This document shows, one piece after another, positions 3,001-6,000 of a DNA stretch of 64,000 nucleotides. How positions within the stretch are numbered: position 1 is the first letter of the stretch; each line of letters begins with the position of its first letter. The position numbers are program-made. The DNA is from an uncultured Campylobacter sp. GTDB taxonomy: Bacteria > Campylobacterota > Campylobacteria > Campylobacterales > Campylobacteraceae. Location: the NCBI GenBank assembly GCA_945928165.1, contig CAMENE010000006.1, positions 5,384 through 69,383 on the forward strand, written 5' to 3'.

Positions 3001-6000
3001 CTCATCACATCGCCGTCATCGCCGTCATTACGAGGAGTGAGTGAGACGAAGCAATCTCTATGAATTCTAAATTCTAGCGGGGTTTTAGGGGCGGCAGGGG
3101 TTTAGGGCGTAGCCCTTATAAACTTTGCGAGCTAGGCTAGATTTATCTAGCCTAAAAGCGAGCAAAAATTTATAATTCTTAAGCAAATTTATTAAGCAAT
3201 TCTAGAATTCCGTATAAAATTCCGTAATTCCGTCATCGCCGAAATCCTGTCATTGCGAGAAGTGAGTGAGACGAGGCAATCTCTTAGAATTCTAAATTCT
3301 AGCGGGGTTTTAGGGGCGGCAGCCCCTAAGGGTTTAGGGCGTAGCCCTTATAAACTTTGCGAGCTAGGCTAGATTTATCTAGCCTAAAAGCGAGCAAAAT
3401 TCTAGAATTCCAAGAATAAATTTAGAATTTCCAAGAATAAATTTAGAATTCCTAAGAATAAATTTTGAATTTCTAAGGATAAATTTGCTAAAAATCTAGA
3501 ATTCCAAGAATAAATTTAGAATTCCTAAAAATTGCTTCGGCTTTTTCAAAGCCTCGCAATGACGAAAATTATAAAATTCCCTAGTGCTTAAACTTCTTTC
3601 TATGCGCCTCAAAATCTATTTCTATAAAGCGGTTTTGCTTTTTGCCTTTTTTAAAATAAAAATACACAAAAACTCCAAGCAATACAGGAAGCGCAAAAAT
3701 AAACAACCAGCTAAGCACAAAAAACACAAAGGCTAGCAAAGCAAAAAGCCCTATAAGCACAGCCGTGGGCAGCGAAAATGCCAGTAAAAACGCAAAAAAA
3801 TTTCTCAAATATCCACCTAAAATCTGCTTAAATTCTATCAAGTTTAGCTAGCATTAGCGCCCACAGCACGCAAAGTGCGAGCATAGCATAAGGCGCAAAG
3901 TAGCTAGCACCAAGCAAGCTACCAACAAAGCTACCACCGTATCCACAGGCATTTAACACACCAAGGGCTGCGCCACGACTAGCTTTTGTTAATTTACTCA
4001 TTTGGCTTTGTAAAATCGGCTCTTGAAGGCTAAATGCGATAAAAAATAGCACCGCACCAACAAAGGCAAATAATGTATTCTCAAATCTTGCCTGAGCTAA
4101 AAACACAAGCAAGCTAAACGCAAAAATAATCACGCTAGCAAAAAATAGCTCTTTTGCCTTGCCCTTAGCATCGCCCAAAAATCCAGCCACGCCCATAGAA
4201 AAAAAGCCAAAAACCGCACACAGCGCATAAATCTGCCACAAACTAGCACGCTCAAAGCCCATTTTCCCCACAAGCACAAGCCCAATGCTTACAAAAAAAG
4301 CATTTAAAAACATTTTTTGTAAAAAATTGCTAAGGCTTAAAATGCGAACATTTTTGTTTTTAATAAGCTCGTAAGTAGTGCTGGTCTCATTATGCTCGTG
4401 TTTTTCTGGCTCGTCTAAACCTAGCAAGATAACAGCACTAATCACACAAAGCAAAGCACAAAGCCAAAATAGCGCACTAAGCCCCAAATAGCTAGCTATA
4501 ATAGGGCTTGAAATCATAGCAAACACAAAGGCCATACCAACGCCCACTCCAAGAAGCGCCATGTATTTTGAACGGGAGTTTTCTGGCACTATATCAGCGA
4601 TAAAGGCACTTGCTACAGCCCCAACTGCGCCAGCACCTTGAATAAAACGCCCCAAAATCAGCAGGTAAATACTATCACTAAATATAGCGCAAAGCACGCT
4701 GCCAAGGCCGTAAATAGCGATACCTAAGGCTAGGGCTTTTTTGCGACCGATTTTATCGCTTAAATGCCCAAAGGGTGCTGCAAATATTATCTGACTTAGC
4801 GCATACGCCCCCACAGCCAGACCTATTTGCCACCCCTGTCCGCTAGTATAAGCACTAAGCACAGGCAAAATCACAAAAAGCCCAAAAAACCTAGCCCAAA
4901 CAATAAATATCAAACTAAATACTTGTCTTTTCAAAACTCTACTTTCAAATAATTTATAAATTCGCTAAGGAATTTTAGAATTCCCTACTATGTCATCCAC
5001 AGCCTACATTGTGTCATTCTCGGGCTTGAGCCGAGAATCTCTGTGATGAGATCCCCCAAAGGGGCTGGGTGATGACACAAGGAATTCTAAAATTCCCTAA
5101 ATAACTCTAGAATTCGCTAGATTGTAACTTGCTAGGCGATTCTAGTATCGTGGTGCTAGTGTGCCAAAAGCTTGCGGTGCGCACGGCGTGGGTAGAACAA
5201 ATAGTTCACCGAGCCGTGCGCATTTCCGCAAGATTTTTGTGCACCCAGCGGGTTGCGCAGCAAAATAGTGCTGCGAGACGAATCGCCAAAAAAAGCACTC
5301 ACAAGTTAAAGCCTAACAAAATTCTATTTCCCTAGCCAAATAGTATAACCCAAACTATTTTGCCTAATAGAATACTTATACTTATTATCTAACTCCAAAA
5401 CCACTCTATAAAACTTACCGTGAGAACCCACGGTTGCACGGCGCAAAGGCGTTTTTTCGCCAAACTCACGGCTATGAGTTAAAAACTTGCTTTTTTTCTC
5501 AAAGTCTATCACAATGCGTGAGCCTTTATCATAGCTTTTTAGTAGCAAATCAGGCGTGTTTATGACGATTTTATTAGCATAGGCATTTATTTTGCCAGCT
5601 ACGATATCAGCACTTGCTAGTGGCGTCTCTTCGCTTGGTGTGACAAGGGCTTGTAGTGGCGGGGCCTCTGTGAGATTTGTTATCGTTTTTGCTTCTGCGC
5701 TGTTAGCTGTGACTGAGACATCAACTACTTCGCCGTTTTTTGGCAGGGCTTGGCGACTGATGTAGATAGTATCACGCCAGTCAAAACTAGCCCCAATCTG
5801 GGCGCGCTTTTCTTTTAGCGAGCCATCCACGCTTTTATAGACTACAACCACGGCCTCTAGCTCTCTTGCATCACTTGGTAAATTTATGCTTATTTGACTA
5901 AAATCGTCTAGCTTTGTAATAATATTTGTAGTATTTGAATCAGCCATGGCAGTAGAGATAAAAGGATTGTCCCTACCAAAAGCCAAAAACGGCAACAAAC

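What the first reader, a model, noticed from the sequence alone, without database searches (positions are those of the whole stretch)
3301..3399. A ~95-bp three-hairpin repeat in nine copies shows stem-preserving sequence replacement
Copies lie at 1294-1375, 3076-3167, 3301-3399, 12911-13012, 14323-14415, 17003-17100, 20718-20820 (reverse), 55861-55943 and 56015-56097. The canonical unit is AGCGGGGTT TTAGGGGC-ggca-GCCCCTAA GGGTT TAGGGC-gta-GCCCT TATAAACTTTGCGAGC TAGGCTAGAT-tt-ATCTAGCCTA AAAGCGAGCAAAA. That is three consecutive stem-loops between conserved linkers. In two copies the third stem is replaced wholesale while pairing and flanks are kept: GGTGGG-ttat-CCCACC (14387-14402) and GGGCGGGAT-ttt-ATCCCGCCC (17066-17086). 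In the 17003-17100 copy the second stem is also swapped, to TCGTGC-cac-GCACGA (17034-17048). Replacement that preserves pairing indicates selection on a folded nucleic acid (RNA or single-stranded DNA), not on a protein or a linear binding site. I do not recognise the family.
Basis: seen in the sequence. Interest (0 to 1): 0.8.

Follow-up and report, generated by a model that had tools for sequence, protein, structure and literature searches.

The report
Three-hairpin intergenic repeat family, Campylobacter
A non-coding repeat of about 100-125 bp, built from three small palindromes, lies between genes of an uncultured Campylobacter as one module of a strain-variable mosaic of intergenic repeats; it looks like a new family of REP/MITE/NIME-type repeat DNA, not a new RNA gene.

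Summary
There are exactly nine copies at the stated coordinates, all intergenic, and all three quoted variant stems are present. A further 11 copies came from metagenome contigs of the same uncultured Campylobacter lineage. No Rfam family matches. The patterns tried found nothing in GTDB representative genomes, plasmids, phages or viral contigs.

Compensatory change is real but sits almost entirely in hairpin 3. Hairpin 1 never covaries and is broken by deletions in several copies. Hairpin 2 covaries in one copy only.

The unit is not a stand-alone gene:
- It is bounded by halves of a 16-bp palindrome, GGAATTCTAGAATTCC, which fills this genome's intergenic DNA.
- It is one of several modules, including a second hairpin family with the same stem swapping, that form arrays differing between strains.
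- Every indel junction I examined falls at that palindrome.
- Copies at the same locus in near-identical strains differ by patches that can break the stem, or belong to different subfamilies. This indicates exchange between copies.
- Stem mismatches show no G·U excess on the + strand.
- Copies are co-oriented with the gene ending upstream in 9 of 10 informative sites.

Best reading: a new lineage-specific REP/BIME/NIME/MITE-like repeat. A 3'-UTR RNA role or a role as an ssDNA recombination site is not excluded.

The parts
3285..3411 (+). Best-preserved full copy: 5' half-palindrome TAGAATTCTAAATTC (3285-3299), core AGCGGGG...GCGAGCAAAA (3301-3399), 3' half-palindrome TTCTAGAATTCC (3400-3411)
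3310..3329 (+). Hairpin 1: TTAGGGGC-ggca-GCCCCTAA. Its sequence is the same in every intact copy, with no covariation
3336..3348 (+). Hairpin 2: AGGGC-gta-GCCCT. It resembles hairpin 1 in sequence, so the two arms can also pair across the two hairpins
3356..3398 (+). Hairpin 3, composite. Outer stem TTTGC/GCAAA (3356-3360 with 3394-3398). Middle stem GCT/AGC (3363-3365 with 3389-3391). Variable inner stem AGGCTAGAT-tt-ATCTAGCCT (3366-3385)
1271..1388 (+). Degenerate copy with broken H1 and H3 5' arms; lies downstream of the RNase H gene
3062..3181 (+). Copy lacking the 3' arm of H1 (7-nt deletion); part of a 232-bp tandem duplication with the 3285-3411 copy
12895..13030 (+). Copy with outer H3 stem CTAGC/GCTAA (U-A changed to A-U). 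Its H3 3' arm ends in TGGG instead of CCCA
14310..14441 (+). Copy with H3 inner stem GGTGGG-ttat-CCCACC; lies downstream of the hexapeptide-transferase gene
16990..17119 (+). Divergent subfamily. H2 is TCGTGC-cac-GCACGA and H3 is GGGCGGGAT-ttt-ATCCCGCCC. It lies after the intrinsic terminator of the TonB-receptor gene (16924-16947)
20705..20831 (-). The only minus-strand copy. It is co-oriented with the minus-strand genes on both sides
55845..55958 (+). Degenerate copy with H1 loop deletion, an H2 mismatch and a 5-nt deletion in the H3 5' arm
56000..56105 (+). Degenerate copy 154 bp downstream of the previous one; its 3' end has diverged

Best explanation
The 95-nt unit is the core of a non-coding, non-autonomous intergenic repeat of about 125 bp. 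It belongs to one uncultured Campylobacter lineage. It consists of three related palindromic sub-units (TTAGGGGC.., TAGGGC.., TAGGCTAGAT..) between conserved linkers, and it is bounded by inverted half-sites of the genome-wide palindrome GGAATTCTAGAATTCC.

It is one module type in arrays delimited by that palindrome. In organisation these arrays resemble Neisseria NIMEs (dRS3 + RS), and to a lesser extent BIMEs (mosaics of REP units) and MITEs.

Shown here:
- Copies are gained, lost and reshuffled together with neighbouring modules, and sometimes with adjacent accessory genes. The breakpoints lie at the palindrome.
- Copies exchange sequence patches with each other.

Inferred:
- The hairpins persist because whole palindromes are exchanged, or their arms are corrected against each other during replication (intrastrand template switching).
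- Hairpin or cruciform formation in DNA may also be what an unidentified recombinase or transposase recognises.
- The orientation bias suggests that copies are tolerated, or mildly useful as 3' structures, only when co-oriented with the gene ending upstream.
For: 1. Nine copies in 64 kb are all intergenic. Eleven more are on metagenome contigs 91-99% identical to the window.
2. The lineage is restricted. A sister species with 86% GyrB identity has no copy and no GAATTCTAGAATTC in 22 kb. The patterns tried found nothing in GTDB representatives, plasmids, phages or viral contigs.
3. Flanks. The consensus is (G)AGAATTCTAGATTTT-core-AAAATCTAGAATTCC, giving 14-15-nt inverted ends in L004, L007 and L008b. 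The window has 31 exact GAATTCTAGAATTC, 26 of them intergenic, and only 77% of it is coding.
4. Arrays differ between strains. The murB-DUF2972 spacer has four alleles in five strains. They range from one palindrome to a mosaic of about 330 bp that contains the element, and every junction is at the palindrome. The block of element, pilin-like gene and two more elements (window 1210-3564) is replaced in L016 by about 210 bp at a TAGAATTC junction. L008 lacks the TonB-receptor gene that lies between two copies, and holds a single inverted copy of another subfamily.
5. Exchange between copies. L018 differs from the copy at the same locus (14323) only by a patch in the 5' arm of H3, and the patch matches other subfamilies. 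L016:19844 and window 20718 occupy the same locus but belong to different subfamilies.
6. Decay. About half of the copies have damaged hairpins.
7. Stem mismatches are 7 G·U against 13 A·C on the + strand.
8. The GTCAT-hairpin-ATCTC family in the same genome shows the same stem swapping.
9. No Rfam family matches. No hairpin in the unit is followed by a U-tract. ARAGORN predicts no tRNA or tmRNA in the copies.
Against: - No transposase, integrase or recombinase gene is in the window or in the annotated loci. The agent of mobility is therefore unknown.
- No clean filled-versus-empty site was found for the element alone. It always differs together with other modules, so a target-site duplication could not be established.
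- The orientation bias (9 of 10 informative sites co-oriented with the gene ending upstream) and the conserved unpaired linkers are not predicted by purely selfish DNA. They would fit a transcribed element.
- Covariation in H3 exceeds all shuffle and slide controls, so selection on a fold is not excluded.
- Only about 20 copies were available, and several of them occupy the same loci in related strains.
Confidence: 0.6

Rival explanations
1. The element acts in cis as RNA in 3' untranslated regions. It is transcribed as the tail of the upstream mRNA, and its hairpins block 3'-to-5' exonucleases, aid termination or direct processing, as shown for REP and Correia repeats.
For: - Nine of 10 informative sites are co-oriented with the gene whose 3' end lies upstream, and no copy sits in a clearly divergent promoter region.
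- In L004 the element starts 2 nt after the dnaE stop codon.
- The + strand RNA fold is stable (-45 kcal/mol, z -3.4) and usually a few kcal/mol better than the - strand.
- H3 covaries.
Against: - Canonical intrinsic terminators lie between the gene and the element at 2769-2802 and 16924-16947, so those copies should be transcribed little.
- No hairpin in the unit is followed by a U-tract.
- G·U is not enriched over A·C on the + strand (7 against 13).
- Many copies have broken stems.
- Copies at the same locus differ by stem-breaking patches.
Confidence: 0.2
2. The element is a folded single-stranded DNA substrate for a structure-specific enzyme, and it mediates the gene-cassette exchange seen next to it. 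The enzyme could be an integron-integrase-like tyrosine recombinase, a HUH transposase of the IS200/IS605 or RAYT type, or an IS110/Piv-type recombinase acting at the flanking palindrome.
For: - The ends are conserved while the stem is variable but paired, which is the pattern of attC sites and REP elements.
- Copies lie at the 3' end of co-oriented genes.
- Single accessory genes bracketed by copies are present or absent between strains: the pilin-like gene and the TonB receptor. The methyltransferase/ATP-grasp block next to the 20718 copy also varies.
- The DNA fold has z -4.2.
Against: - No recombinase or transposase gene was found in about 230 kb examined.
- There are no attC core sites (GTTRRRY / RYYYAAC) and no GTAG head.
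- Many copies follow housekeeping genes: dnaE, polA, feoB, murB, asd.
- Indel junctions map to the flanking palindrome, not inside the element.
Confidence: 0.12
3. The element is a multicopy stand-alone small RNA gene family.
For: - The core boundaries are constant (AGCGGGG ... GCGAGCAAAA) and the linkers are conserved.
- A -10-like TAGATT / TAGAAT lies in the 5' half-palindrome.
Against: - No terminator follows the unit and no Rfam family matches.
- Degenerate and chimeric copies are common.
- The element is absent from the sister species.
- The -10-like hexamer is part of a palindrome found everywhere in intergenic DNA.
Confidence: 0.05

Closest known systems
Neisserial intergenic mosaic elements (NIMEs: dRS3 inverted repeats flanking RS elements)
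   Same: A short inverted-repeat motif delimits many families of repeat modules of about 50-150 bp. The modules form intergenic arrays whose content and length differ between strains, and the arrays often lie next to variable or surface-related genes. This is how PMC1797815 describes NIMEs. Here the motif is GGAATTCTAGAATTCC, the three-hairpin unit is one module, and the arrays differ between strains.
   Different: The phylum and the sequences are different. dRS3 is ATTCCC-N8-GGGAAT, whereas this motif is GGGAAT-TCTAGA-ATTCCC. No dRS3-targeting recombinase or prophage is known here. RS elements are not described as multi-hairpin units with covarying stems.
REP / BIME / REPIN elements of gamma-proteobacteria
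   Same: Short extragenic palindromes in many copies are combined with other motifs into mosaics at the 3' ends of genes. Their hairpins are kept through compensatory changes. They can stabilise upstream mRNA and are mobilised as ssDNA by RAYT transposases (established knowledge, not tested here).
   Different: There is no GTAG head. Tandem copies lie head-to-tail, not in alternating orientation. No RAYT gene was seen. The unit is a fixed series of three different palindromes.
MITEs such as Correia (CREE/NEMIS), RUP, ERIC and the modular BOX elements
   Same: They are 100-150 bp, non-coding and intergenic, with terminal inverted repeats and an extensively folding transcript. They occur as subfamilies and internal-deletion variants, and are restricted to single lineages.
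   Different: The terminal repeats here are simply halves of a palindrome that also occurs alone throughout the genome. No target-site duplication and no parent insertion sequence was identified.
Integron attC sites
   Same: Both have conserved ends, a variable but palindromic centre and a position 3' of a co-oriented gene. Adjacent single genes are present or absent between strains.
   Different: The R''/R' core sites and the single imperfect hairpin with extrahelical bases are absent. No intI gene is nearby. Many flanking genes are housekeeping genes.

Membership tests
Any Rfam RNA family | Covariance-model score at or above the gathering threshold, or at least a low E-value | tested here: not met
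   At gathering thresholds the whole window gives only tRNA-Met. A permissive scan of 1150-3600, which holds three copies, gives nothing on the copies at E <= 5.
REP/BIME | Short imperfect palindromes, extragenic, in many copies | tested here: met
   Three palindromes per unit and nine intergenic copies in 64 kb. The copy number for the whole genome is only an extrapolation.
REP/BIME | Conserved GTAG-type head next to the palindrome, and clusters in alternating orientation | tested here: not met
   There is no GTAG. The tandem pairs 3075/3300 and 55859/56014 are head-to-tail.
REP/BIME | A RAYT (Y1 HUH transposase) gene in the genome | not testable with these tools
   None is in the window or the fetched loci, but the complete genome is not available.
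NIME | Arrays in which a short inverted repeat flanks diverse repeat modules of 50-150 bp | tested here: met
   This is met as an analogy only. GGAATTCTAGAATTCC bounds the three-hairpin unit, the GTCAT-hairpin-ATCTC units and the GTCATTGCGAGG palindromic element.
NIME | The dRS3 sequence ATTCCC-N8-GGGAAT, in Neisseria | tested here: not met
   The motif is different and the host is a Campylobacter. The element is therefore not a member, although it resembles NIMEs in organisation.
NIME | Syntenic arrays vary in content between strains | tested here: met
   Four alleles at the murB-DUF2972 spacer. The arrays after the hexapeptide-transferase gene and after queF also differ.
MITE | Terminal inverted repeats | tested here: met
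   GAATTCTAGATTTT / AAAATCTAGAATTC, 14 nt and perfect in L004, L007 and L008b, degenerate in other copies.
MITE | Target-site duplication, and a clean empty site in another strain | tested here: inconclusive
   TCTAGA flanks many copies, but it is part of the palindrome. No strain pair differs by the element alone.
MITE | A parent insertion sequence sharing the terminal repeats | not testable with these tools
   No insertion sequence is in the available DNA. GTDB, plasmid and viral scans gave no hits.
Integron attC | R''/R' core sites (RYYYAAC ... GTTRRRY) and a single bulged hairpin | tested here: not met
   By reading the sequence and from the folds.
Integron attC | An adjacent intI integrase and a promoterless cassette array | tested here: not met
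   Pfam finds no integrase in the window. The flanking genes include murB, asd, dnaE and polA.
Intrinsic terminator | G+C-rich hairpin followed by a U-tract | tested here: not met
   The terminator scan does not call H1, H2 or the main H3 hairpin in any copy; its only calls inside a copy are two weak 5-bp stems at 12966-12982. True terminators lie upstream of two copies.

The most novel reading that the evidence does not exclude
The three-hairpin unit and its flanking palindrome GGAATTCTAGAATTCC are the DNA sites of an undescribed recombination system in Campylobacter that recognises structure. The system would be analogous to integron attC/IntI or to dRS3/Piv. It would move repeat modules and whole accessory genes (pilin-like, TonB receptor, methyltransferases) in and out of intergenic hot spots across the chromosome. 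The variable but paired third stem would be the part read as folded single-stranded DNA.
Probability: 0.12. Interest if true: 0.75.

Novelty: new variant of a known kind. Interest (0 to 1): 0.4.

Why it matters
From memory, the reference Campylobacter genomes such as C. jejuni are compact and poor in repeats. This uncultured lineage is only about 77% coding in the window, and its spacers are filled with modular palindromic repeats that turn over faster than the genes.

If the arrays drive gain and loss of neighbouring accessory genes, they would be a mechanism of genome plasticity in Campylobacter comparable to NIMEs in Neisseria.

There are two practical consequences:
- The repeats break metagenome assemblies of this organism. 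Many of the related contigs end inside or next to a copy.
- The repeats could serve as strain markers.

For RNA discovery the case is a caution. Covariation in a dispersed palindromic repeat does not by itself show that a structured RNA exists.

Tried and rejected
Searches that found nothing:
- GTDB representative genomes. A two-anchor DNA pattern gave 0 hits. A MatE protein query found no relatives.
- Plasmid and phage BLAST, and viral contig patterns.
- Literature search for the palindrome and for Campylobacter REP-like repeats. Nothing relevant came up.
- Exact-protein look-ups for dnaN and asd. Neither is on record.

Explanations rejected:
- Protein coding. Copies differ by indels of 1, 2, 5 and 7 nt, and no ORF is conserved.
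- tRNA or tmRNA relic. ARAGORN finds only tRNA-Met at 30681.
- CRISPR or tandem array. Copies are dispersed.
- Intrinsic terminator.
- H3 variants as independent small palindromes inserted into the unit. They occur nowhere outside the element.
- Orientation set by the direction of replication. The + copy at 17002 and the - copy at 20718 lie 3.7 kb apart and each follows the local gene orientation.

Considered but not supported:
- A G-quadruplex alternative using GGGG..GGGG..GGG..GGG in the 5' half. Several copies lack one or two of the G-tracts.
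Full report
**Observation**

A profile HMM built from the nine stated intervals recovers exactly those nine (E 1e-23 to 1e-40). A covariance model run with filters off over both strands of the window finds the same nine (E 1e-11 to 1e-23), and the next hit has E = 0.06.

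Simple pattern searches give 5 and 6 matches where shuffled sequence gives 0.39 and 0.00. The canonical string and the three quoted variant stems are at the stated coordinates.

The three hairpins are the minimum-free-energy fold of the best copy:

| Molecule folded | Energy (kcal/mol) | z-score |
|---|---|---|
| RNA, + strand | -45.1 | -3.4 |
| RNA, - strand | -43.9 | -4.9 |
| DNA | -26.2 | -4.2 |

Hairpin 3 is longer than described, because the conserved flanks TTTGC/GCAAA and GCT/AGC also pair. Four window copies (1283, 3075, 55859, 56014) have lost part of H1, H2 or H3 and fold at only -15 to -34 kcal/mol.

**Host and distribution**

- The window carries dnaA, dnaN, gyrB, ruvC, recA and eno.
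- GyrB is 82-86% identical to the C. hyointestinalis / vicugnae / lanienae group. It is 99% identical to a metagenome protein cluster with 631 members. The host is therefore an uncultured Campylobacter species.
- A strict two-anchor pattern found no copy in GTDB representative genomes. It found eight metagenome contigs.
- Exact-protein look-ups added syntenic contigs from related strains.
- Plasmid, phage and viral collections have no copy.
- A sister species with 86% GyrB identity has neither the element nor the palindrome described below in 22 kb around its origin.
- A lineage with 82% MurB identity has the palindrome but no element in 7.4 kb.
- No Rfam family matches at gathering or permissive thresholds.

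**Covariation**

Eighteen copies were aligned to the model. 93.4% of cells pair. Eight pairs and 24 cells have changes on both sides. None of 500 shuffles reaches these values, and structures slid by 1-3 columns pair in only 35-58% of cells. RNAalifold independently recovers H2, the H3 inner stem and part of H1.

The signal is uneven:
- H1 has no covariation. It is either identical or broken.
- H2 covaries only through the 17002 copy.
- H3 carries the rest: four to five inner pairs, plus one outer pair (U-A to A-U in 12910, L002 and L008a).

The H3 variants are related, not replaced wholesale:
- AGGCTAGAT/ATCTAGCCT to GGGCTAGAT/ATCTAGCCC is one compensatory pair.
- From there to GGGCGGGAT/ATCCCGCCC is two more compensatory pairs.
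- GGCGGG/CCCGCC to GGTGGG/CCCACC is one more.

However, it comes from a handful of subfamilies, and several aligned copies occupy the same locus in related strains.

**Anatomy beyond the stated coordinates**

The core is flanked by (G)AGAATTCTAGATTTT on the 5' side and AAAATCTAGAATTCC on the 3' side. These are inverted repeats of each other, 14 nt and perfect in three copies. They are also the two halves of the 16-bp palindrome GGAATTCTAGAATTCC.

- That palindrome occurs 31 times in the window in the form GAATTCTAGAATTC, and 26 of these are intergenic.
- It often forms tandem arrays with a 21-22-bp period.
- Only 77% of the window is coding.

The same spacers hold other modules:
- A 29-nt family, GTCAT-[9-bp stem, 5-nt loop]-ATCTC, has at least 20 copies. 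Its stems are likewise swapped with pairing preserved, for example ATCCCCCAG/CTGGGGGAT, ATTGTCCGG/TCGGACAAT and ATCCTCGGG/CCCGAGGAT.
- A palindromic element of about 100 bp has the ends GTCATTGCGAGG...CCTCGCAATGAC.

The three-hairpin unit is therefore one module of a mosaic.

**Turnover between strains**

The murB-DUF2972 spacer has four alleles in five strains:

| Strain(s) | Content of the spacer |
|---|---|
| L016, L018 | one palindrome |
| window | two palindromes |
| L021 | the GTCATTGCGAGG palindromic element |
| L002 (L008 has the same start) | a mosaic of about 330 bp that contains the three-hairpin unit |

Every junction in these alleles is at the palindrome.

Larger differences follow the same rule:
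- The block of element, pilin-like gene and two more elements (window 1210-3564) is replaced in L016 by about 210 bp. The junction lies at a TAGAATTC half-site.
- The TonB-receptor gene lies between the 14322 and 17002 copies. It is missing from L008, which has a single inverted copy of another subfamily.
- The methyltransferase/ATP-grasp genes next to the 20718 copy are missing from L016.

Copies at the same locus are informative:
- L018's copy sits in a spacer otherwise identical to the window over 245 bp. It differs only by a patch of about 7 nt in the 5' arm of H3. The patch matches the arm of other subfamilies and reduces the stem to 3 bp.
- L016:19844 and window 20718 occupy the same site but belong to different subfamilies.

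H3 therefore diversifies largely by exchange of patches between copies, with breakpoints near the hairpin apex. Pairing is not always restored.

**RNA or DNA**

Evidence that fits RNA:
- In nine of ten informative sites the element is co-oriented with the gene whose 3' end lies upstream.
- No copy is in a clearly divergent promoter region.
- In L004 the element starts 2 nt after the dnaE stop codon.

Evidence against RNA:
- Canonical terminators lie between gene and element at 2769-2802 and 16924-16947, and no hairpin of the unit is followed by a U-tract.
- Stem mismatches are 7 G·U against 13 A·C on the + strand. This is the opposite of what selection on a + strand RNA predicts and is consistent with symmetric decay.
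- About half of the copies are damaged.

No transposase or recombinase gene is present in the window or in the annotated loci. The mobilising agent is therefore unknown.

**Interpretation**

The best-supported reading (about 0.6) is a new, lineage-restricted family of non-autonomous intergenic palindromic repeats. In organisation it is closest to Neisseria NIMEs, where a short inverted repeat delimits many families of repeat modules in strain-variable arrays (PMC1797815). It also has features of BIME/REP elements and of MITEs.

It is not a member of any of these families by sequence or by their defining motifs. It has no dRS3, no GTAG head, no alternating orientation and no attC core sites.

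Three things could account for the hairpins. The unit is built from related palindromes. Whole-palindrome conversion or arm-against-arm correction could keep the arms matched. An unidentified enzyme might also select for a DNA fold. None of these is shown directly.

The rivals are a 3'-UTR RNA element (about 0.2), an ssDNA recombination or transposition substrate linked to the cassette-like gene indels (about 0.12) and a stand-alone sRNA (about 0.05).

**Verdict**

- The element is an undescribed family, but of a known kind.
- Interest is moderate. It would be higher if the palindrome-delimited arrays prove to be a recombination system that moves genes.

Noticed in passing
whole window, e.g. 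2768-2803, 6334-6497, 11124-11191, 36436-36471, 42307-42342, 62350-62466: The 16-bp palindrome GGAATTCTAGAATTCC is hugely over-represented: 31 exact GAATTCTAGAATTC, 26 of them intergenic. It often forms tandem arrays with a 21-22-bp period. It marks every indel junction I examined between strains, and pairs of it form terminator-like hairpins such as 2769-2802 followed by T7.
   Followed up: partly
window 1448, 2881, 2974, 5013, 13064(-), 13094, 29611, 42239, 42302(-), 44459, 45544(-), 45578 and others: A second repeat family, GTCAT-[9-bp stem, 5-nt loop]-ATCTC, has 29-nt units in at least 20 copies, often as inverted doublets like REPINs. Its stems are also replaced with pairing preserved between constant flanks.
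   Followed up: partly
window 56249-56345 and 56609-56702; L021:6610-6720: A palindromic element of about 100 bp has the ends GTCATTGCGAGG...CCTCGCAATGAC. In strain L021 it is inserted between palindromes at the murB-DUF2972 spacer, and it is absent there in the window.
   Followed up: partly
window 11392-11399 (gene from ATG 11264 to 12831): A poly-G tract lies in the DUF2972 gene. It is G8 in the window, where the reading frame from ATG 11264 is broken, and G6 to G9 in other strains; L016, L018 and L019 encode an intact 521-aa protein. This looks like a phase-variable contingency gene. Other long homopolymers: 23219-23227 (C9), 23404-23411 (C8), 45604-45612 (C9), 59828-59837 (G10).
   Followed up: partly
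window 1709-2743: This gene has a type IV pilin-like N-terminal methylation motif followed by about 170 residues of low-complexity Ala/Pro/Thr/Ser/Lys repeats. The whole gene and its flanking repeat arrays (1210-3564) are absent from strain L016.
   Followed up: partly
window 14766-16883 and 21023-23194: The TonB-dependent receptor gene is absent from L008. The two methyltransferase genes and the ATP-grasp gene are absent from L016. Both are accessory blocks that lie next to repeat arrays.
   Followed up: partly
window 12866-12890 and 14238-14262; L008:3392-3420: Another recurrent module, TTTT(C)TGGGGGTTAGGGG(G)T..TTTTTTTAG, lies just downstream of stop codons. It is G-rich and followed by a T-run.
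   Followed up: no
window 3304-3339: The 5' half of the element has four G-tracts (GGGG-TTTTA-GGGG-N13-GGG-TTTA-GGG) and could form a G-quadruplex that competes with hairpins 1 and 2. Several copies lack one or two of the tracts.
   Followed up: partly
window 5324-8776 versus 24066-28892; L012: In the sister species, recA-eno lies within about 5 kb of ruvC-dnaA-dnaN-gyrB. In the window they are about 19 kb apart with other genes between them, so the origin region has been rearranged.
   Followed up: no
window 13162-13437; L020:4313-4916: A small HTH (XRE-type) gene lies between DUF2972 and the hexapeptide-transferase gene. In L020 it is paired with a Gp49/HigB-like toxin gene, and in L008, L016 and L018 it is missing. 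It is probably the remnant of a toxin-antitoxin pair.
   Followed up: no
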